Positions 6,273-45,446 of a DNA stretch of 64,000 nt are shown here, piece by piece. A program made the translations under genes and the position numbers. Under the pieces are notes generated by a model. That model worked only from the letters and a program-made list of their open reading frames with translations. It was not told the DNA's origin and did not search any database. How positions within the stretch are numbered: position 1 is the first letter of the stretch; every line of letters begins with the position of its first letter. Origin of the DNA: a virus; the IMG/VR virus record IMGVR_UViG_3300034069_000900, positions 12,922 through 76,921 of that record, one strand, 5' to 3'.

Positions 6273-7769
6273 ATGGCGACCGGGCTAAATCCCGCTGATT
6301 TCGTCAATGTCAGCGTCGTAATTGAGCAATTCCCAGCCCAATACCGAAATTTCGGATCCGCGCTGCACATCGGCTCCTCTCCAATCATCGATACCAATGA
6401 GCGTATCCGGCTGTTCACGGGTCTTGACGCAGTCGCACAGACCTTTGGCACTAAGGCACCGGAGTACTTTGCCGCTGCGGCCCACTTTGGGCAGTCGCCG
6501 CAGCCGCAGACGCTCTACATCGGTCGGTGGGCTCAGAATGCGACGGCAGGTCTACTGCATGGCGCCGTGCTGAGCACGACGCAGCAGTTGGTCTCCAACT
6601 TTAGCGGTGTCAACAACGGCGCGCTGAACATCAGCATCGATGGCATCCCCCGCACGATCACCGGCATCAATCTCACTTCGGCACTCAACCTTAACGCAGT
6701 CGCCAACCTAGTTCAGGTGGCTATTGCGGCAGTTGTGCCGGGTGTGCGGGTGATCTGGGGCAATGTGGACAGTCGCTTCACTATCATCAGCCCCACCACG
6801 GGTACGAATTCTAGCGTGAGCTACGCCACGGCCCCCGGTGGTGGCACAGACCTCGGCGCGTTGATGCACTTCACGAGTGTGGATGCCAGCCCCCCGGTCA
6901 TCGGGGTTGCGCCGGAGAGCCTGATCACCTGCGTCGCCAATATGGCGAACATCTCGACCCAGTGGTATGCACTCGAAGTGTTTACGGCAACGCCCCCGGC
7001 GGACGCTGACCACATTGCGGTCGCGCAGTTCATTGAAGCTTCCACGCAGAGCCGCATCTACGGCGTCAACATCCAGAACAGCAACGTGCTCGACAGCACG
7101 ACTAACCTGGATCTGGGCTCGGCATTTAAGACGCTGAACCTCAAGCGCACGTTCTGGCAGTACTCTTCCAACTCCCCGTATGCTGTGGCCTCGCTGTTCG
7201 GGCGAGCCGCCACAGTAGATTTCAACGGTAGCAACACCACCATCACGCTCGCTTACAAGCAAGAGCCGGGTATTGCTGCGGAGTACTTGACCGAGAACCA
7301 GTTCGCCACGCTCAAGGCCAAGAACGGCAACGTATTCGTTAACGTCAATAATGGCACGGCGGTCGTATTCCCCGGCTCTATGGCCAACGGTTACTGGTTT
7401 GATGAGGTGCACGGCACGGACTGGCTCCAGAATGAGATCCAGACGGATGTCTATAACCTGCTCTATCAGACCCCGACCAAGGTACCGCAGACCGACGCGG
7501 GTATGAATCTGATTAAGGCTGTCATCCAGGCGGCTTGCCAGCGCGGCGTTAACAATGGGCTCATCGCCCCCGGCGTCTGGACCGGCCCCAGCATCGGTCA
7601 GCTGAACACGGGCGATACGCTGACGTCGGGCTTCTACGTCTACGCACCTCCGGTCGCTTCGCAGTCTGACGCAGACCGCGCGGCGCGCAAGTCTGTTTCG
7701 TTCCAAGTCGCCATCAAGTTGGCTGGGGCGGTTCACACCGTGCTCATCTCAGTGCTGGCTGATCGCTAA
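6273..7769 (+). CDS. contractile tail sheath protein (DUF3383 family)
   Basis: 498 aa with PEYFAAAAHFGQSPQPQTLYIGRW, TLAYKQEPGI, DEVHGTDWLQN, KVPQTDAG and IKLAGAVH. Confidence 0.92.
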   Translation: MATGLNPADFVNVSVVIEQFPAQYRNFGSALHIGSSPIIDTNERIRLFTGLDAVAQTFGTKAPEYFAAAAHFGQSPQPQTLYIGRWAQNATAGLLHGAVLSTTQQLVSNFSGVNNGALNISIDGIPRTITGINLTSALNLNAVANLVQVAIAAVVPGVRVIWGNVDSRFTIISPTTGTNSSVSYATAPGGGTDLGALMHFTSVDASPPVIGVAPESLITCVANMANISTQWYALEVFTATPPADADHIAVAQFIEASTQSRIYGVNIQNSNVLDSTTNLDLGSAFKTLNLKRTFWQYSSNSPYAVASLFGRAATVDFNGSNTTITLAYKQEPGIAAEYLTENQFATLKAKNGNVFVNVNNGTAVVFPGSMANGYWFDEVHGTDWLQNEIQTDVYNLLYQTPTKVPQTDAGMNLIKAVIQAACQRGVNNGLIAPGVWTGPSIGQLNTGDTLTSGFYVYAPPVASQSDADRAARKSVSFQVAIKLAGAVHTVLISVLADR

Positions 7770-28123: not shown

Positions 28124-28822
28124 GTGACCATTCCGGCAAAACAGATTAACTACTTCCTCGAAGCTCGAGTTGGTGTTTCGGGGTTCTCGTCGGCAGGAGG
28201 CGCATCCGACACGATCACGTCGGCCCTGACGACAGCGCTCTCGACTGCTTCACGAGCGGGCGGATCGGTTCCGCTCCAAGTCGGTAGCGCCAACCTGGAA
28301 GGCGTTGACACTGCTACCGGTTTCAACCTCACCCCGATCTACATCGCATCCGGCGTGCGCCTGACCGACACCAATGGCAACGACGTCTATGGCAAGATCA
28401 CTAACAGCGGTTCGACGTGGACGCTCTCGTACTTCTCGGCGCCGAGTGGGGCGGAGGCTGCCTACACGATGGCAGCCTCGACCTCTATCGCCTTTGAGGT
28501 CCCCTACATCTTCAGCTTCGCCGACCTCCCGCTGACCGCGATCACGGCGGTCACAGATCGGCACATCGCGCCAGACCCTGCCAACCAGGGCATGCGGTTG
28601 CAGACCGATGCGCTGACCGTCACGGCGACCAACACTGTGTCGGCACTGTCCCGCACGCAGAACGGTGGCGTCTTCTTCCTCTACGTCAACGGTGTGGCGT
28701 ACCGGAACGTCGGTGGCTCCCCGCCGGTCTCCGTCTCGGGCACGGTGGTGACGTGGAATGCGACCAACGCGCAGTTCGCACTGGCGACTACGGATGAAGT
28801 AACCGCGTTCTACTCGTATTGA
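28124..28822 (+). CDS. hypothetical virion protein
   Basis: Ser/Thr/Gly-rich; FLYVNGVAY...DEVTAFYSY C-terminus. Confidence 0.62.
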   Translation: MTIPAKQINYFLEARVGVSGFSSAGGASDTITSALTTALSTASRAGGSVPLQVGSANLEGVDTATGFNLTPIYIASGVRLTDTNGNDVYGKITNSGSTWTLSYFSAPSGAEAAYTMAASTSIAFEVPYIFSFADLPLTAITAVTDRHIAPDPANQGMRLQTDALTVTATNTVSALSRTQNGGVFFLYVNGVAYRNVGGSPPVSVSGTVVTWNATNAQFALATTDEVTAFYSY

Positions 28823-29502: not shown

Positions 29503-30066
29503 ATGACCGCACTGTTCATATCCAAGGTTACGACCTACGGCCCCCGGTTGATGAAAGACTTCGGCCTTACGGCTGAAGAGTGTGCCGCAATATTCGGTAA
29601 TCTTGGGCACGAGAGCGCAGGTTTTGCGGTCCTACAAGAACAGGGCAAGCGACACGGTACGGGGGGTTGGGGTTGGGCACAATGGACAGGCCCCCGGCGC
29701 CGGAGCTTTGATGCCTTTGCACTGAGCCATAAGCTCTCCAAAGATAGCGATGAGGCCAACTACGAATATCTGTGTTTTGAGTTACGGGGGCTGGAGCGGG
29801 GCGCACTCACATCGCTGAAGCGCGCGGTGGGGCTGGAGAACAAGGTACGTGCTTTCGAGCGGGGCTTTGAGCGCGCAGGCATCCCGGCGATACCAAGCCG
29901 GGTGGTGTGGGGCCGGCTTGCCCTTACGGTGCTAAACCACCTCAGCGGCAAGGGCCCCGCGCCGGAAGCCAAGGCCCCAGCGCTACCCCGCAAAGCGAGC
30001 CGCCCCCGCCCAGTCGGGGGTCGGGTGACGCCCCGCACGCATCATCACCGGCATCGTCGAGGCTGA
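29503..30066 (+). CDS. endolysin, phage-tail-lysozyme-like domain with basic C-terminal tail
   Basis: GNLGHESAGF...GWAQWTGPRR; lies at the start of the membrane-gene cluster. Confidence 0.8.
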   Translation: MTALFISKVTTYGPRLMKDFGLTAEECAAIFGNLGHESAGFAVLQEQGKRHGTGGWGWAQWTGPRRRSFDAFALSHKLSKDSDEANYEYLCFELRGLERGALTSLKRAVGLENKVRAFERGFERAGIPAIPSRVVWGRLALTVLNHLSGKGPAPEAKAPALPRKASRPRPVGGRVTPRTHHHRHRRG

Positions 30067-30070
30067 GCAC

Positions 30071-30853
30071 GTGACCGCACTCGTCAAACCCCGCGATATC
30101 GGTTGGTACGGGTTTCGACCTGACCTGCCTGACCGGCGCGATAAGCTGTTCGCGCCGAAGCCGGCGCTGCTGACAGCCGCCCCGCCCCCGATCGACCTGC
30201 GCCACTGGTGCCCCCCGGTTATGGACCAGGGTGACGTCGGGGCTTGTTCAGCGCACGCTATCACCGCGGCGCTACGCTTCATCCTTATCAAGCAGGGCAA
30301 GCCTGACATCGCCCTCAGTCGGCTCCAGCTCTACTATGACGAGCGAGTCGTAGAAGGCACTGTAGCCTCTGATGCTGGGGCGGAGCTCCGTAACGGGTTG
30401 AAGTGTGCTGCCAAGCTCGGCGTCGCGCATGAGCCACTCTGGCCGTACAACCCGCTCAAGTTTAAAAGTAAACCGACCAAGCGAGTCTATGCTGACGCGT
30501 TGAAGTTCACTGCGCTCACGTACGAACGTGTCGAGGTCAATGTAGCGCACATCAAGGCTGCACTTGCTTCGGGCTTTCCGGTGATTATCGGTATAAGCAT
30601 CTTCGATGCTTTCGAGAGTGACGCCGTTGCTCAGACTGCCATGGTGCCGATGCCCGCGCCTACCGATGCCCCGCTCGGCGGACACGCGATGCTAGCTGTC
30701 GGCTACGGGCAGAAGCCAGGGTGTTTCACTGTACTCAACAGCTGGAACACAGACTGGGGCGACAAAGGCTACTGTTATATTCCCGAAGCATACCTAGGCG
30801 ATACTGACCTAGGCAGCGACTACTGGACCATAACCAGCTTGAAGGTGTCGTGA
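30071..30853 (+). CDS. papain-like (C1 family) cysteine peptidase
   Basis: Catalytic motifs DQGDVGACSAHA (Gln/Cys), GGHAMLAVGY (His) and VLNSWNTDWGDKGY (Asn); GFRPDLPDRRD N-terminus as in bacterial C1 peptidases. Confidence 0.92.
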   Translation: MTALVKPRDIGWYGFRPDLPDRRDKLFAPKPALLTAAPPPIDLRHWCPPVMDQGDVGACSAHAITAALRFILIKQGKPDIALSRLQLYYDERVVEGTVASDAGAELRNGLKCAAKLGVAHEPLWPYNPLKFKSKPTKRVYADALKFTALTYERVEVNVAHIKAALASGFPVIIGISIFDAFESDAVAQTAMVPMPAPTDAPLGGHAMLAVGYGQKPGCFTVLNSWNTDWGDKGYCYIPEAYLGDTDLGSDYWTITSLKVS

Positions 30854-33227: not shown

Positions 33228-34601
33228 TCATGCCTTGGACGCCTCGAGCTCGTGAATATACCGAATCACGTTCTCCGAGAAGCCGTCAATATGGGTCCAG
33301 GCCCCGTAGCCCACGCCGTTCTTGTACGAAGCCACGTTGATCAGATAGTTGTGTGTGCCAAACGGCTTTGCCAGCCGGGGCGAATCCGCGTGGCTCACAG
33401 CACAATCCTGCTCATCCGTGATAACGATCACGCGGTCCGCAGAGTGCTGCTCCTTCAGCACATGCTCGAGCATGGGCTTCAAGAAGATACCCCCGCTACC
33501 GAGAGTGCGCATTTGAGCGATGAATGCATCCCGCAGGGCCATACCCTTGCGCGCAGGCACCTGTGCCGTGGCATGAGTACGCCGCGCGTCACTACCGGCA
33601 GTAGCATAAAGGATAGGCTCCTCGCAGCAGTGAGCGGCTACGGCAGCCAGCGCAGCGCCCGCATCGAGGCGTGTCATGGTGGACCGCCCGCCGAGGGCGC
33701 TCATCATCGAGCCCGAGACATCCAGCACGATCACCGTGCGCCCCGCAAGCCGAGGCATTTGTTCGAAGCTCGCAACGAGGGCTTCATCCAGTGCATTCTC
33801 ATACAGAGGCGCTTCCCGTGCCGCCGCAAAAAAGCGGAAAGGCAGCACGCGCTCAGCACCATTCGCGCGGGCGCGGATAGCGGACTCCACTAGCTCCCGC
33901 GGAACTCCGGCCTGCACCATGTTGCGCAGGTTGCGGATGAGTGCGAGGTAACCGAGCCTGCCTTCCTGGATTAACCGGGTGAAAGTTTCCTTCTTGTCAG
34001 CACCCCCGGAGAGCGCGACTTCCCAGGTGTCCGGGGTCTTAAGCTCGCGGGCGACGGCGCGCTTGTACAGGGCGCTCCGCGCCTCGCCCCCCGGCTGAGG
34101 GTGCACCATGCGGATGACGTCACGCAGCTTGATCACCGTGTCGCGGTCGTACTTGCCCAGGCTGTACTCGCTGAACTTGTGCAGCGCCCGTGCCAGCCCC
34201 TTCTTGAGCTGAGCCGCGATCGGGGTCTTGCCGTCCTTCCAGTACAGGGACAGGAGCTCCGCCGGCTCGTCGGCGCGACTAACCACCCGCTCCACCGTCG
34301 TAGCGACGACCGGGTTGCCGCGCGCGTTGCGCACGAGCTCACGGACCAGCAACAGCGAGACATGGCGAAGGTTCCGCTCGTGCCGCGCCTCGATGGCCAG
34401 CAACGCTAGGTCGCTGGGGTTGACCTTGGCGGCGAGCTCCTTGATGCGGTCAGCAGCGCTTACCCCGGACTCGTAGAACTGGTCCTCGAACAGCAGGCAC
34501 GCCAGGACGGTGCGCCGTAATTCCTGGAGCGGGTTGATTGCATGGGCGGGGCTGCCGCCGTAGGTGGTGCGGGTGTTGACAGCCTTGACGTTCGTGCGCA
34601 T
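33228..34601 (-). CDS. rsr: TROVE-domain Ro60-like RNA-binding protein with vWA domain
   Basis: QELRRTVLACLLFEDQFYESG, RHVSLLL, KKGLARALHKFSEYSLGKY, LRDVIRMVHP, TWEVALS, LGYLALIRNLRN, LPFRFFAA; MIDAS DVSGSM and VITDEQ. Confidence 0.93.
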   Translation of the reverse strand: MRTNVKAVNTRTTYGGSPAHAINPLQELRRTVLACLLFEDQFYESGVSAADRIKELAAKVNPSDLALLAIEARHERNLRHVSLLLVRELVRNARGNPVVATTVERVVSRADEPAELLSLYWKDGKTPIAAQLKKGLARALHKFSEYSLGKYDRDTVIKLRDVIRMVHPQPGGEARSALYKRAVARELKTPDTWEVALSGGADKKETFTRLIQEGRLGYLALIRNLRNMVQAGVPRELVESAIRARANGAERVLPFRFFAAAREAPLYENALDEALVASFEQMPRLAGRTVIVLDVSGSMMSALGGRSTMTRLDAGAALAAVAAHCCEEPILYATAGSDARRTHATAQVPARKGMALRDAFIAQMRTLGSGGIFLKPMLEHVLKEQHSADRVIVITDEQDCAVSHADSPRLAKPFGTHNYLINVASYKNGVGYGAWTHIDGFSENVIRYIHELEASKA

Positions 34602-34623
34602 CTCATCGTCCCTTCACAGAATA

Positions 34624-34648
34624 AGCCCCGAGCACAATGCTCGGGGCT
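34624..34648 (-). terminator. 11-bp hairpin between the Y-RNA array and the TROVE start (terminator/attenuator or processing site)
   Basis: agccccgagca-caa-tgctcggggct; followed on the - strand by TATTCT (a weak U-tract). Confidence 0.5.
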
Positions 34649-34667
34649 CGATTTGACGCGACAGGGT

Positions 34668-34770
34668 GGAACAGAGGAAACAATCGGCCCCGGAAGCTCA
34701 CACCCGAGGGTGCGGTTGGATTCGAACCAACATTTACCAGAAGTATCCGCTGACCTACACCATCTGTTCC
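34668..34770 (-). ncRNA. Y-RNA-like RNA, unit 1 (contains a T-arm)
   Basis: - strand: GGAACAGA UGGUGUAG..UACUUC..GUUGG-UUCGAAU-CCAAC..AUUGUUUCC UCUGUUCC; terminal 8-bp stem. Confidence 0.8.
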
Positions 34771-34790
34771 ATACTGTAGCGCCGAGGTAC

Positions 34791-34950
34791 GGCGGGCCGG
34801 GGGAAACAATCGAGTGTCGTGACGTGTGCGCTCTAACCAGACTGAGCTACAGAACGATCCTAGGTTGCCCTAGCATGCCCTGGTTCGATTTGAACGAACG
34901 ACCTCACCCTTAGCAAGGAAGTAACGACCCTCTACACCACCCAACCCGCC
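34791..34950 (-). ncRNA. YrlA-type Y RNA with a circularly permuted tRNA-like domain, unit 2
   Basis: Terminal stem GGCGGGUUGGG/CCCGGCCCGCC (the G-U pairs form only on the - strand). The T-arm precedes a hairpin-capped acceptor stem, which precedes the D-arm UAGCUCAGUCUGGUUAGAGC. Confidence 0.88.
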
Positions 34951-34963
34951 ATACCTCAACACA

Positions 34964-35040
34964 ACGGTTTAGAGGAAACAAGCGGCTCCAGCATGCACTG
35001 CTCCAGAAGAAGTAGCTGACGCCTTCACCATCTAAACCGT
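34964..35040 (-). ncRNA. Y-RNA-like RNA, unit 3 (minimal)
   Basis: Perfect 10-bp terminal stem ACGGUUUAGA/UCUAAACCGU enclosing UGGUGAAG..UACUUC..CUUGUUUCC. Confidence 0.8.
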
Positions 35041-35042
35041 AG

Positions 35043-35115
35043 TGCCGTCCGGGAAACAAGCGGGCACCGCATCCCTGTTTCGATGAAGTAGCGGTACCCA
35101 ACACCACGGGCGACA
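35043..35115 (-). ncRNA. Y-RNA-like RNA, unit 4 (minimal)
   Basis: UGUCGCCCG UGGUGUUG GGUACCGC UACUUC..GCGGUGCCC GCUUGUUUCC CGGACGGCA. Confidence 0.8.
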
Positions 35116-35123
35116 TTTGTAGG

Positions 35124-35822
35124 TTAGCCTCGGTGCGTTCGGGGCACAAGCGGCGCCTGCCGCCGGTCCAGGGCCCAGGCTAGCCCCGCAGCGCCAGCTA
35201 CCAGGGCGGCCCCAACCGCAGCGGCGCCCCACAGCAGCAAGCGCTCGTCCACGGCCCCGTGCGCCCAACCCTGGATCAGGGGGTCCTCGACCAGCACCTT
35301 GCCGCCAATAGCCCCGAGTGCAATAGCCCCGAGCCAGATGAGCCAGGGGGCACGCTCGAGCAACCACATCAGAGCAGCCGCCCCGAGGATGACGAACGGT
35401 ACGCAGACAAGGATGCCAAACACGATAAGGTGCCAGTCGCCCCCACTGATGCCGATGATGGCGGCGACATTATCCAGCGACATCGTAATATCTGCGATTG
35501 CGATGGCGCCTACCGCCGTCAGCAGCGAGGTTGAGGGGGCCTTCTCATCATCCGCAGCATGGCGGGTCATCTTATAGGCCACGTACAGCAGGTACAGCCC
35601 CCCGGCGATTGCGACGCCGGGCCATTGCAGCAGCCACGCACCGCCTAGCGCCGCAGCTACGCGCAAGACGATAGCCGCCCCCGCGCCGAGTATCATGCCC
35701 CAGACCCGCTGTGCCGGGGGTAGCCCCTGACACACGAGGGCGACGACCATGGCGTTATCCCCGCTCAACAAGGCGTCGGTCAGTATGATGCCGACCCCGC
35801 GGGCGATGTAATCGTGTTCCAT
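35124..35822 (-). CDS. terC: TerC-family (YjbE-like) integral membrane protein
   Basis: IILTDALLSGDNAMVVAL, GAGAAIVLRV, IAIADITMSLDNVAAI. Confidence 0.9.
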   Translation of the reverse strand: MEHDYIARGVGIILTDALLSGDNAMVVALVCQGLPPAQRVWGMILGAGAAIVLRVAAALGGAWLLQWPGVAIAGGLYLLYVAYKMTRHAADDEKAPSTSLLTAVGAIAIADITMSLDNVAAIIGISGGDWHLIVFGILVCVPFVILGAAALMWLLERAPWLIWLGAIALGAIGGKVLVEDPLIQGWAHGAVDERLLLWGAAAVGAALVAGAAGLAWALDRRQAPLVPRTHRG

Positions 35823-35836
35823 TACATTCCCCTATG

Positions 35837-35865
35837 AAAAAGGGCGCCCCTTGCGGAAGCGCCCT
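35837..35865 (-). terminator. intrinsic terminator downstream of terB
   Basis: - strand AGGGCGCUUCC-GCAA-GGGGCGCCCU followed by UUUU. Confidence 0.7.
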
Positions 35866-35887: not shown

Positions 35888-36325
35888 TCAGCCCAAGAGC
35901 TTACCCTTATCCACACCTAGCTCTTTGGCGATGGTGTCCAGCACCTTGTGCTCGTCCTGACCGATGCCGCCGTTATCGGCGACGTCAGCAGCGATGAGGA
36001 ACACGTCCTGCTTCTGCTCGGCCGGGCGGGCCGCCATAGCCTGGATGGCCCGGATGTTCGTCATACGTCCATGACGCGTTTTGGCGTTGTTCAGGGCCTC
36101 GGTCAGCGCGGACTCGATGGCGGCCGGGGTGAATGCTGCCTTGAGCTCGGGCTTGTTGCTGATGCCGGCGATGGCGGACTCGATCTCGGCATCCTCGATC
36201 ACGCCGTCGGCCGCCGTTACGTTGGCGCAGGCCGCCGCAAGGGCGTTGAGGAATACGGTGTCGCCCTTGTACTTGGTAAATGCTGCGGTGGCGTCGCCCA
36301 CCAGCTTTTGCAGAAAGCTCATCAT
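35888..36325 (-). CDS. terB: TerB-family protein
   Basis: FLNALAAACANVTAADGVIEDAE..., VADNGGIGQDEHKVLDTIAKELGV. Confidence 0.85.
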   Translation of the reverse strand: MMSFLQKLVGDATAAFTKYKGDTVFLNALAAACANVTAADGVIEDAEIESAIAGISNKPELKAAFTPAAIESALTEALNNAKTRHGRMTNIRAIQAMAARPAEQKQDVFLIAADVADNGGIGQDEHKVLDTIAKELGVDKGKLLG

Positions 36326-44428: not shown

Positions 44429-44587
44429 GTGCGCCGACCGCACCGAAGTTAGTGTTGGGGCGTGCCCGGCCCCCAAGACGTCGCGTCCTCCGTTGTGCTC
44501 CTCCTGCGACGATTCCTGCCGCTGCCGCTCCTGGCCTCATCGCTGTGGTGCGCAGGCCGGGGGCCGGGCACATCCTTAGGGGGTAGT

Positions 44588-45446
44588 GATGCGAGTGATA
44601 GGCACTGAGGGACTGCGCACCAAAGAGCTATTCGCCTTCATGCGCGAGCGGTACGCAATATTCCTCAAGAAGGAGGCCGGGGAGCCCAAGCCCTGGACCG
44701 CAGACCCAATCCTGCAACGCTTCCGCTTCTGTAACATTTATCGCGAGGATGATAAGGTCACCCGGTGGATCCGGGTCAACTGGCGTGAGCCCCACACCGA
44801 TGACCCCGACCTGTGGTTCGCCATGGTCGTCGCCCGGCATCTTAACCTGCCCGCCAGCTTAGAAGAGCTAGGGTACCCGGTGCCCTGGGACGGCGCCCGC
44901 TTCGTGGAGCTGATGACCGCCCGCAAGGCGCGCAATGAGCGTAACTTCAGCGCCGCTTACATGATCGGCACCAATGGCAACCCGGTCGAGAAGGCTATAT
45001 TCCTAGAAGATCGTATCTTCACGCCACTTTGGCAGGCTCGAGATACGCTGCGCCCGCGGGCCGGGGATACGTTGACCGCCTATCACATGATGCTGGGACA
45101 GATCTACGGCTTGGCGAGCTTCCTGACCGCGCAGGTTATCGCAGATACTAAGTTTCATGGCGTGCTGCGACAGGCCCCGGACTGGTGGGATTTTGCTGCG
45201 AGCGGGCCGGGCAGCCGGCGCGGGCTGAACCGGGTAATAGGACGCGATAAGGATGCCGGCTGGCGCGAGGACGACTGGCGCCTGACACTGGCGCGGTTGC
45301 GCGGGGCCGTGGAGCCCCTGGTGCTGGATGCAGGTATGCCCCCGCTCAGTGCGCAGGATCTTCAGAACTCCTTGTGCGAGTTCGATAAATACGAGCGCGC
45401 TCGTCTGGGCGAGGGGCGCCCGAAGCAGCTGTACGCAGGAGTATGA
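44588..45446 (+). CDS. 5-hmdU DNA kinase (aGPT-Pplase clade 1 family)
   Basis: FAFMRERYAI, PKPWTADPILQRFRFCNIYREDDKVTRWI, ASFLTAQVIADTK, GPGSRRGLNR, DLQNSLCEFDKYER. Confidence 0.88.

What the first reader, a model, noticed from the sequence alone, without database searches (positions are those of the whole stretch)
33228..35115. Phage-encoded Ro60 (TROVE) protein with a tandem array of four Y-RNA-like ncRNAs directly upstream
Seen: four units on the - strand (34668-34770, 34791-34950, 34964-35040, 35043-35115). Each has its own unrelated terminal stem but the same internal signature UGGUG(U/A)(A/U)G...UACUUC...UUGUUUCC. G-U pairs in unit 2 favour the - strand, the same strand as the TROVE gene. 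Cargo differs: a T-arm (unit 1), a full tRNA-like domain (unit 2), short hairpins (units 3-4). Established: bacterial Ro60/Rsr binds Y RNAs encoded beside it, and Y RNA tethers Ro60 to PNPase. A few phages are known to encode both. Inference: a shared Ro-binding scaffold with interchangeable effector domains could be a modular RNP set, for example decoys for host anticodon nucleases or adaptors redirecting RNA decay.
Basis: partly seen in the sequence, partly recalled or inferred. Interest (0 to 1): 0.88.

Follow-up and report, generated by a model that had tools for sequence, protein, structure and literature searches.

The report
Phage Ro60 gene with four Y RNAs
An uncultured phage carries a gene for the ring-shaped RNA-binding protein Ro60 and, just upstream, four small structured RNA genes that share one conserved "handle" but carry different heads (one a rearranged tRNA-Ile look-alike); this is a divergent, array-forming version of the known Ro60/Y-RNA partnership, and I found it to be common in phages and some bacteria.

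Summary
The 94-kb record is a phage. ORF 33228-34601(-) is a Ro60/TROVE protein; its closest solved relative is Thermus phage phiLo Ro60.

A covariance model built only from other phages' units recovers all four (E 1.6e-12 to 6.3e-8) and hits nothing else in the genome. The shared handle is: closing stem, U bulge, GG/CC, internal loop, 8-bp second stem, then invariant UACUUC. It recurs 225 times beside TROVE genes in 80 IMG/VR loci, three reference phages and this window, always on the TROVE strand, with strong compensatory covariation. It also recurs 93 times in 29 bacterial contigs.

The handle is a divergent form of the published Ro-binding motif GNCGAA. No unit reaches Rfam's YrlA threshold.

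The cargo classes (short hairpin, T-arm only, permuted tRNA) match published bacterial Y RNAs. The "modular RNP set" is therefore the accepted Y-RNA model, not a new idea.

One possibly new point: the hairpin before the T-arm is an anticodon-arm look-alike. In unit 2 both halves match tRNA-Ile. That gives limited anatomical support to the decoy idea.

No expression data exist. The scan has noted similar Ro60-like gene plus RNA arrays on other phage DNA.

Verdict: a real, divergent variant of a known system; moderate interest.

The parts
33228..34601 (-). Ro60/TROVE protein gene (457 aa) with a vWA domain and the MIDAS-type motif DVSGS
   Evidence: Pfam TROVE 2.5e-13 and vWA_Ro60 28.2 bits against a cut-off of 27.7. 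phrog_850 1.1e-43. Full-length match to Thermus phage phiLo Ro60, 9KOP/9L5Y, E 3.4e-27. AAGGGA lies 7 nt before the ATG.
34616..34650 (-). Terminator-like hairpin (11-bp G+C-rich stem, UUG loop, then UAUUCU) between unit 1 and the TROVE start; probable 3' end of the array transcript
   Evidence: Read from the sequence. Strongest local hairpin in the fold of the spacer. Rfam sub-threshold hits here match only terminator hairpins of unrelated sRNAs. The consensus terminator scan did not list it.
34668..34770 (-). Y-RNA unit 1 (103 nt): handle plus T-arm plus a closed hairpin, no D-arm (YrlB-like)
Evidence: R1 30.3 bits, E 6.3e-8. Fold.
34791..34950 (-). Y-RNA unit 2 (160 nt): handle plus a circularly permuted tRNA-Ile-like domain. 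Order: anticodon-arm-like hairpin, AGGUC, T-arm, acceptor-like stem capped by a GCAA hairpin, D-arm.
   Evidence: R1 37.7 bits, E 5.4e-10. YrlA model positions 23-86, 24.2 bits, E 0.011. Fold z -3.1. Both halves hit only tRNA-Ile genes in 5,426 E. coli genomes, in permuted order.
34964..35040 (-). Y-RNA unit 3 (77 nt): handle plus a short apical hairpin/loop; 5' loop reads GGUGAAG
   Evidence: R1 44.9 bits, E 5.7e-12. Fold z -2.6.
35043..35115 (-). Y-RNA unit 4 (73 nt): handle plus a short apical loop; begins 9 nt after the terC stop codon
   Evidence: R1 46.9 bits, E 1.6e-12. Fold. ORF table.

Best explanation
The 522-nt spacer between terC and the TROVE gene encodes four Y RNAs (73, 77, 160 and 103 nt). 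They are probably made as one precursor that ends at the hairpin at 34616-34650.

Each RNA closes on itself through a long 5'/3' stem. It then presents one conserved handle: a U bulge, two G-C pairs, an asymmetric internal loop (5' YGNA, 3' GNYURUU), an 8-bp helix, and the invariant single-stranded UACUUC.

The handle is a divergent form of the Ro60-binding element of bacterial Y RNAs (GNCGAA on the 5' strand, CUUG on the 3' strand). I infer that the phage Ro60 ring binds it, giving four ribonucleoproteins with different heads: two single-stranded-loop hairpins, one T-arm module and one permuted tRNA-Ile mimic.

By analogy with Deinococcus Rsr-Yrn1-PNPase and phage phiLo Ro60-Yrl-PNPase, the heads would tether Ro60 to host RNA-handling proteins (PNPase for the loops, tRNA-binding factors for the tRNA-like heads). 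This would reshape or restrain host RNA decay during infection.

Shown here: the RNA family, its structure, and its strict genomic linkage to TROVE. Inferred: transcription, processing, binding by Ro60, and the partners.
For: - Motif statistics in the window: 4 hits against 0.01 expected.
- A model built from other phages finds exactly these four units and nothing else in the window or the 94-kb genome.
- Protein-first search: 225 R1 hits at E<=0.01 in 84 sources, all on the TROVE strand and mostly directly upstream; 93 hits in 29 bacterial-contig TROVE loci, all on the TROVE strand.
- Motif-first scan of IMG/VR: 55 of 79 loci held carry a TROVE homolog, 54 of them on the same strand, at a median of 227 nt; 51 motifs lie upstream.
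- Covariation: 90.8% of cells are paired, against 58.5% when shuffled and 39-48% when slid; 18 of 18 pairs have two-sided changes. RNAalifold predicts the same structure de novo on a plain MAFFT alignment, with 15 of 18 pairs compensatory.
- Handle consensus and invariant positions.
- Register-for-register correspondence with the Rfam YrlA consensus, seen in the cmscan alignments, and with the published motifs GNCGAAN0-1G and YUAY.
- The protein is full-length homologous to phiLo Ro60. That protein binds two upstream Yrl RNAs through a CGAA-containing internal bulge and forms ternary complexes with host PNPase (PMC12135203).
- M. smegmatis YrlA and YrlB are cut from one precursor, and YrlB has a T-arm.
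Against: - No RNA data: no RNA run was listed for this sequence, so transcription, ends and processing are unproven.
- No promoter-like site was found by the consensus scan.
- The units do not reach Rfam's YrlA gathering score (24.2 against 69).
- The 5' loop reads UG(U/A)(A/U), not CGAA. In phiLo, mutating CGAA reduced binding.
- Of four phiLo residues reported to contact RNA, my reading of the printed alignment (the residue offset is my inference) keeps only the two lysines (K141, K142); R137 and R178 are A and Q here.
- The phage has no PNPase, RtcB or RNA ligase of its own, so any partner must come from the host, which is unknown.
Confidence: 0.8

Rival explanations
1. Anti-defence decoys. 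The tRNA-like heads, tethered to Ro60, imitate specific host tRNAs including their anticodon arms. They would soak up or misdirect tRNA-targeting defence nucleases or other defence proteins, rather than (or besides) steering general RNA decay.
For: - In 37 of 145 T-arm-bearing units the 17 nt at the exact tRNA offset form a 5-bp stem with a 7-nt loop carrying U33 and a purine at 37. Shifted control windows give 0-1.
- Stem positions 30/31 covary with 39/40.
- Anticodon-like triplets include Asn GUU, Lys UUU, Thr UGU, Ser GCU, Arg and Ile.
- Unit 2 of the window is collinear with tRNA-Ile through the anticodon loop.
- A Ro60-like protein of phage Bas63 was reported to counter the Ppl defence system (bioRxiv 10.1101/2024.10.10.617714).
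Against: - No defence system or nuclease is linked to this locus.
- Most units (about two thirds) have no tRNA-like head.
- In unit 2 the hairpin has only 4 of 5 pairs and competes with the canonical YrlA pairing to the strand after the D-arm, also 4 of 5 (and the sequence).
- Chen et al. read this hairpin as a variable arm.
- The set may include a few genuine tRNA genes.
Confidence: 0.12
2. A cis-acting leader. The repeated handles would be Ro60 binding sites in the 5' untranslated region of the TROVE mRNA, giving autoregulation or attenuation, rather than genes for stable trans-acting RNAs.
For: - The array is directly upstream on the same strand, with a terminator-like hairpin between it and the start codon.
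- No separate promoter for TROVE was detected.
Against: - In several relatives the array lies downstream of TROVE (4 of 55).
- Units carry elaborate tRNA-like heads that a leader would not need.
- Homologous RNAs in bacteria and in phiLo are stable species bound in trans.
Confidence: 0.05
3. A decayed tRNA gene cluster or a selfish repeat family with no link to Ro60.
For: - Unit 2 resembles tRNA-Ile and unit 1 has a T-arm.
- In CcrColossus one unit is annotated as tRNA-Gln.
Against: - ARAGORN finds no tRNA in the window. The only tRNA-model hit near the cut-off is a chimera of the D-arm of unit 2 and the T-arm of unit 1.
- Two thirds of the family's units have no tRNA part.
- The handle is under strong structural selection.
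- Linkage to TROVE, and strand agreement with it, is near-absolute.
Confidence: 0.03

Closest known systems
Thermus phage phiLo Ro60 with Yrl1 and Yrl2 (PMC12135203; PDB 9KOP, 9L5Y)
   Same: - It is the closest solved relative of the window's protein (E 3.4e-27, full length).
- The Y-like RNAs lie directly upstream of the gene.
- They have a stem / internal bulge / stem handle with a CGAA-type motif.
- The phage lacks its own PNPase and binds the host enzyme in vitro.
   Different: - phiLo has two RNAs, this phage has four.
- No tRNA-like heads are described for phiLo.
- The loop here reads UGUA, UGAA or UGUU, not CGAA.
- I could not fetch the phiLo RNA sequences, so whether they fit model R1 is untested.
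Bacterial Rsr with YrlA/YrlB (Salmonella, M. smegmatis; Chen et al. 2014, PMC4201824; Rfam RF02553)
   Same: - Encoded next to the Ro60 gene on the same strand.
- One RNA has a T-arm, closed acceptor and D-arm domain; another has a T-arm only or a small loop.
- In M. smegmatis, YrlA and YrlB come from one precursor.
- A conserved YUAY lies before the V stem-loop, matching (U)UAC of UACUUC.
- Ro motif on the 5' strand.
   Different: - Units score far below Rfam's threshold (24 against 69 bits).
- The paired GGCGA/UCGCC helix is opened into an internal loop.
- The 3' strand and UACUUC are also conserved, whereas Wang et al. (citing Chen et al. 2014) state that only the 5' strand is conserved in bacteria.
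- Arrays hold 3-8 units rather than the two described there.
Deinococcus radiodurans Rsr-Yrn1-PNPase (RYPER)
   Same: - Several small RNAs are encoded upstream of rsr.
- The Y RNA tethers the Ro ring to PNPase through single-stranded loops. This is the model I use for units 3 and 4.
   Different: - That is a cellular stress-response system.
- No PNPase interaction was tested for this phage, and the host is unknown.
Caulobacter phage CcrColossus TROVE locus (YrlA reported by Chen et al. 2014)
   Same: - 49% identical protein.
- Eight handle units lie in tandem upstream of the gene, with the same UACUUC and UUGUUCC signature.
   Different: - It has more units, most of them tRNA-like, and its own TTGACA promoter-like box.
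- One unit is annotated as tRNA-Gln.
Metazoan Ro60 with Y1, Y3, Y4, Y5 RNAs
   Same: - One protein, several RNAs.
- The RNAs share a conserved closing helix (UGGUCCGA / CUUGACC from my own knowledge; compare UGGUG.. / (A/C)UUGUUUCC here) and have divergent loops.
   Different: - Separate Pol III genes, no tRNA-like domains, eukaryotic partners.

Membership tests
Ro60/TROVE protein family | TROVE domain (PF05731) above Pfam's cut-off | tested here: met
   50.5 bits against a cut-off of 23, E 2.5e-13. Only profile positions 272-351 match, so the protein is divergent.
Ro60/TROVE protein family | C-terminal Ro60-type vWA domain with a MIDAS motif | tested here: met
   PF25045 28.2 bits against a cut-off of 27.7. 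The DVSGS motif is visible in the translation and aligned to phiLo Ro60.
Ro60/TROVE protein family | Full-length similarity to a solved Ro60 ring | tested here: met
   phmmer E 3.4e-27 over residues 12-454 against 22-484 of 9KOP/9L5Y. The ring fold itself was not modelled.
YrlA (Rfam RF02553) | Score at or above the gathering threshold of 69 bits | tested here: not met
   No hit at gathering level in the window. The best hit is 24.2 bits, E 0.011, covering model positions 23-86 of unit 2 only.
YrlA (Rfam RF02553) | T-arm, closed acceptor-like stem-loop and D-arm in that order | tested here: met
   True for unit 2 only: cmscan alignment and tRNA-Ile hits to both halves in permuted order. Units 1, 3 and 4 lack it.
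YrlA (Rfam RF02553) | GNCGAAN0-1G motif near the 5' end | tested here: not met
   Units read GGUGUAG, GGUGAAG and GGUGUUG: one to three mismatches, always U for C. Across the family this position is U in 58% and C in 42%.
Y RNA (Ro60-associated ncRNA, functional class) | Encoded close to the Ro60 gene on the same strand | tested here: met
   The units lie 67 to 514 nt upstream of the start codon on the - strand. The same holds in more than 100 related loci.
Y RNA (Ro60-associated ncRNA, functional class) | Long stem formed by the 5' and 3' ends that carries a conserved Ro-binding element, with a variable distal module | tested here: met
   Folds, covariation, consensus.
Y RNA (Ro60-associated ncRNA, functional class) | Bound and stabilised by Ro60 in vivo | not testable with these tools
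   No RNA or RIP data; no RNA run was listed.
tRNA genes | Cloverleaf recognised by ARAGORN or by Rfam tRNA at 29 bits or more | tested here: not met
   ARAGORN finds none. The best tRNA-model hit is 22.1 bits and joins parts of two different units.

The most novel reading that the evidence does not exclude
The tRNA-like Y RNAs of these arrays would not be generic tRNA mimics. They would be handle-tethered copies of particular tRNAs that keep an anticodon-arm look-alike (Ile-like body with a GCU triplet here; Asn, Lys, Thr, Ser and Arg in relatives). A phage would then carry a small library of Ro60-bound anticodon-arm decoys or sensors aimed at tRNA-targeting host defences or tRNA-damage pathways.
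Probability: 0.12. Interest if true: 0.85.

Novelty: new variant of a known kind. Interest (0 to 1): 0.5.

Why it matters
The role of Ro60 and its Y RNAs in bacteria is still largely open, and in phages almost entirely so. The purpose of the tRNA-like domain is unknown.

This locus, and the several hundred related units found here, show three things:
- Phage and some bacterial Ro60 genes usually come with arrays of 3-8 partner RNAs.
- The arrays share a strictly conserved handle that current Rfam thresholds miss.
- The heads are diversified, and some keep anticodon-arm-like hairpins of identifiable tRNAs.

This gives a usable covariance model for annotation. It names invariant nucleotides to mutate: the G and A of the 5' loop, UACUUC, and UU-CC. 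It also points to culturable models (CcrColossus on Caulobacter, the Tenjo group on Xanthomonas) in which the function can be tested. For this window alone, the result is a well-supported annotation rather than a surprise.

Tried and rejected
- Rfam at gathering thresholds found nothing in the window. The sub-threshold hits other than YrlA and tRNA match only the terminator hairpin and were dismissed.
- The tRNA-model hit at 34707-34856 is a chimera of the D-arm of unit 2 and the T-arm of unit 1, the mirror image of the tandem-tRNA artefact that Chen et al. warn about.
- The ORFs overlapping the array (34542-34913 +, 34603-34809 -, 34910-35149 -, 35032-35367 -) have no Pfam match and were treated as spurious.
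- The consensus promoter scan found no site. A weak TTGTGC-N17-TAACCT ahead of unit 4 is my reading only.
- No RNA-seq run was listed.
- I could not obtain the phiLo Yrl sequences: no supplement is held and the phage did not appear in the listed phage hits.
- The Chen 2014 supplementary tables are not held, so I cannot say how many units per phage they reported.
- My first regex detector was crude and was replaced by model R1.
- Model R1 finds nothing at E<=0.1 in crAss001, Halogranum virus HGTV-1 or Vibrio phage phiKT1024, and only weak hits in Streptomyces phage BRock, Bacillus phage G and a Rhizobium phage. The handle as modelled therefore does not cover all TROVE phages.
- I first rejected the decoy idea on the ground that YrlA-type domains lack an anticodon loop. 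I withdrew that objection.
- The weak R1 hit at 28778-28815 (E 0.83) lies antisense inside a coding ORF and is taken as chance.
- No structure prediction or complex prediction was run; sequence evidence for the protein was sufficient, and the complex tool does not take RNA.
Full report
**What the window is.** The window is part of a 94-kb IMG/VR virus record, estimated 82% complete. Genes around the locus are typical of a tailed phage: a tail lysozyme, Pam3 gp33/gp34-like proteins, an AEP primase, a UvrD helicase and a 5-hmdU DNA kinase, plus an SNF2 helicase. DNA runs holding the sequence come from a plant metagenome. The host is unknown. The nearest cellular TROVE homologs (53-55% identity) are in Alphaproteobacteria such as Reyranella and Hyphomicrobiaceae.

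**The protein.** ORF 33228-34601(-) encodes 457 aa. Four lines of evidence identify it:
- Pfam TROVE (E 2.5e-13) and the Ro60-type vWA domain, just above its cut-off.
- PHROG 850, 'RNA-binding protein', over its whole length (1.1e-43).
- Among solved structures, only Thermus phage phiLo Ro60 (9KOP/9L5Y), E 3.4e-27 over residues 12-454.
- The MIDAS-type DVSGS motif is present.

The gene is far from rare in phages. tblastn finds it in 92 reference phage records, including Xanthomonas, Caulobacter/Brevundimonas jumbo, crAss-like, Rhizobium, Streptomyces, Vibrio, Gordonia and Bacillus G phages and a haloarchaeal virus.

**The four units.**
- The composite 5' motif occurs four times against 0.01 expected.
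- The 3' octamer occurs four times in the whole window, once per unit.
- Each unit folds into the same architecture.
- The spacer folds 40 kcal/mol better on the - strand than on the + strand.
- A G+C-rich hairpin followed by UAUUCU (34616-34650) separates unit 1 from the TROVE ribosome-binding site.

**Independent test with relatives.** Xanthomonas phage Tenjo, Brevundimonas phage Kabachok and Caulobacter phage CcrColossus all have long gene-free gaps upstream of their TROVE genes. By eye these gaps hold 5, about 5, and 8 units with the same signature.
- I aligned 15 short units from other phages, none from this window, and built covariance model R1.
- R1 finds units 4, 3 and 1 in the window with default filters.
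- With filters off it finds all four, at E 1.6e-12 to 6.3e-8, and nothing on the other strand.
- In the whole genome it hits only the array.

**Distribution and linkage.**
- Across 80 IMG/VR TROVE loci, three reference phages and the window, R1 gives 225 hits at E<=0.01. Every one is on the TROVE strand. Most are packed just upstream of the gene and a minority just downstream.
- In 29 contigs of bacterial assemblies it gives 93 hits, again all on the TROVE strand.
- One of these, in Reyranella, is flanked by ordinary cellular genes (ankyrin-repeat protein, GST). The subfamily is therefore not confined to phages.
- A motif-first scan of IMG/VR is independent of the protein. Of 79 loci held, 55 carry a TROVE homolog in the held DNA: 54 on the same strand, at a median distance of 227 nt, with 51 motifs upstream. 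Many of the other 24 are too short to judge or may be chance matches.

**Structure and conservation.** On 139 distinct units, 90.8% of cells in the 18 handle pairs are standard pairs. This compares with 58.5% after shuffling and 39-48% when partners are slid. All 18 pairs show two-sided changes. That alignment is fitted to the model, so I also ran RNAalifold on a plain MAFFT alignment. It predicted the same three helices, with compensatory changes in 15 of 18 pairs.

The consensus reads, from 5' to 3':
- variable closing stem;
- U (98%);
- GG;
- Y, G (100%), N, A (93%);
- an 8-bp helix;
- N, then UACUUC (97-100% per base);
- cargo;
- the return strand of the helix;
- G, N, Y, U, R, UU;
- CC;
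- return strand of the closing stem.

The hits were selected by a model that contains these motifs, so the percentages are upper bounds.

**Relation to the known Ro-binding element.** Rfam's YrlA consensus, printed in the cmscan alignments, begins GGCGAAUG, then a helix strand, then CUA. It ends ACUUG-UCGCC. The units here read GG(U)G(U/A)AG, helix strand, UUACUUC, and end (A/C)UUG-UUUCC. The order and spacing are the same.

What differs is that the paired GGCGA/UCGCC of YrlA is degraded to GG/CC plus an internal loop. phiLo Yrl RNAs are likewise described as carrying CGAA in an internal bulge. Chen et al. defined GNCGAAN0-1G and a conserved YUAY that begins the V loop. These correspond to the 5' loop and to the UAC of UACUUC.

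Two features appear new relative to those papers:
- the conservation of the 3' strand;
- the conservation of the full UACUUC at a fixed 8-bp distance, even in units without any tRNA-like part.

The fixed distance suggests that one protein, or one complex, reads both elements. That is my inference.

**Cargo.** Among the 139 best units, 90 are short hairpins (median 74 nt), 26 have T and D arms (median 138 nt) and 21 have a T-arm only. The window's set of two hairpins, one T-arm unit and one tRNA-like unit is a typical sample. It matches what Chen et al. described for three bacteria: one tRNA-like RNA, one with a small loop, and M. smegmatis YrlB with a T-arm, with YrlA and YrlB cut from one precursor.

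**The hairpin before the T-arm.** I first thought the decoy idea was excluded because YrlA replaces the anticodon loop with the Ro stem. That does not hold for this subfamily.
- In many tRNA-like units the 17 nt ending a 4-5-nt variable-loop spacer (usually AGGUC) before the T stem form a 5-bp stem and a 7-nt loop. The loop has U33 and A37 or G37. The first stem bases are the UUC of UACUUC, and positions 30/31 covary with 39/40.
- This holds for 37 of 145 T-arm units at the canonical offset, against 0-1 at shifted offsets. A few genuine tRNA genes may contaminate that count.
- In the window's unit 2 the segment reads CUUCC-UUGCUAA-GGGUG-AGGUC.
- A blastn search of 5,426 E. coli genomes returns only tRNA-Ile genes: residues 33-74 at 81-83% identity and residues 100-127 at 93-96%. 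The E-values are weak because the database is huge, but every listed hit is tRNA-Ile.
- Unit 2 is therefore a permuted tRNA-Ile look-alike that keeps the loop heptamer. Its stem can form either locally (4 of 5 pairs) or with CACAC after the D-arm (4 of 5 pairs). I cannot decide between the two.
- Chen et al. called this element the variable arm.

**Function.** Nothing was measured for this phage, and no RNA run was listed. The record holds two ordinary tRNA genes elsewhere and no RtcB or RNA ligase. Any partner enzyme must therefore be the host's.

The best-supported model rests on homology. Ro60 binds the handle, and the heads recruit host factors. PNPase is the documented case, in Deinococcus and, in vitro, in phiLo, where complex formation slowed PNPase. 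A Ro60-like protein of phage Bas63 was reported to counter the Ppl defence system. Abundant putative Y RNAs upstream of an Rsr-like gene were seen in a Listeria phage transcriptome.

**Novelty.** Phage Ro60 with adjacent Y RNAs is published (Chen 2014, 22 phages including CcrColossus; phiLo 2025). I found no description of:
- arrays as the norm;
- this handle with its invariant UACUUC and conserved 3' strand;
- the anticodon-arm-like hairpins.

The supplementary tables of Chen 2014 were not available to me. Earlier notes of this scan report similar Ro60-like gene plus handle-RNA arrays in other phages. I treat those as leads only.

Noticed in passing
window 35124-35822 (-) and 35888-36325 (-): TerC (3e-39) and TerB (6.7e-7) family genes lie directly upstream of the array on the same strand, with a terminator-like hairpin (35841-35865) between them. 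No terB or terC gene is annotated beside TROVE in Tenjo, Kabachok or CcrColossus, so they do not look like conserved partners of the Ro60 locus.
   Followed up: partly
window 44586-45446 (+): A 5-hmdU DNA kinase helical domain (1.8e-37) suggests that this phage hypermodifies thymidine in its DNA.
   Followed up: no
L004:1664-1731 (CcrColossus, JX100810.1): The annotated tRNA-Gln lies inside one of the eight Y-RNA units (R1 hit at 1658-1826). The handle's 5' strand appears to serve as a pseudo acceptor/D region, followed by an anticodon-arm-like hairpin (CUG) and a T-arm. After the T-arm the sequence reads ..GUCCACC-A-CCA, which is complementary to the start of the unit. The annotation is probably a Y-RNA unit misread as a tRNA, or a dual-fold RNA.
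   Followed up: partly
L114:4380-5286 (Bacteroides phage crAss001): The crAss001 TROVE gene (39% identity) has no R1 hit at E<=0.1. A 900-nt gene-free gap lies downstream of it, holding a 144-nt stretch that the tRNA model spans end to end (46.6 bits). This may be a more divergent Y-RNA set.
   Followed up: no
L117:5040-5203 (Streptomyces phage BRock): A near-threshold match to the manA RNA motif (49.7 against 55.2 bits) lies among the tRNA genes next to the Ro-like gene.
   Followed up: no
window 29503-30066 (+) and 30071-30853 (+): A phage tail lysozyme domain protein is followed directly by a papain-family (Peptidase_C1) cysteine protease, an unusual neighbour in a lysis or structural module.
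   Followed up: no
window 28778-28815 (-): A weak partial match to the handle model (11.3 bits, E 0.83), containing GGUUACUUCA, lies antisense inside ORF 28124-28822. Probably chance.
   Followed up: no
L085 (Reyranella sp. CPCC 100927, NZ_VOHA01000001.1): A TROVE gene 55% identical to the phage's, with two handle units upstream, sits between an ankyrin-repeat protein gene and a glutathione S-transferase gene. This is an apparently cellular context, not a prophage.
   Followed up: partly
G000:C1:4233-4305 and 6649-6722 (outside the window): The phage has two ordinary tRNA genes about 40 kb away from the Y-RNA array. Their identity was not determined.
   Followed up: no
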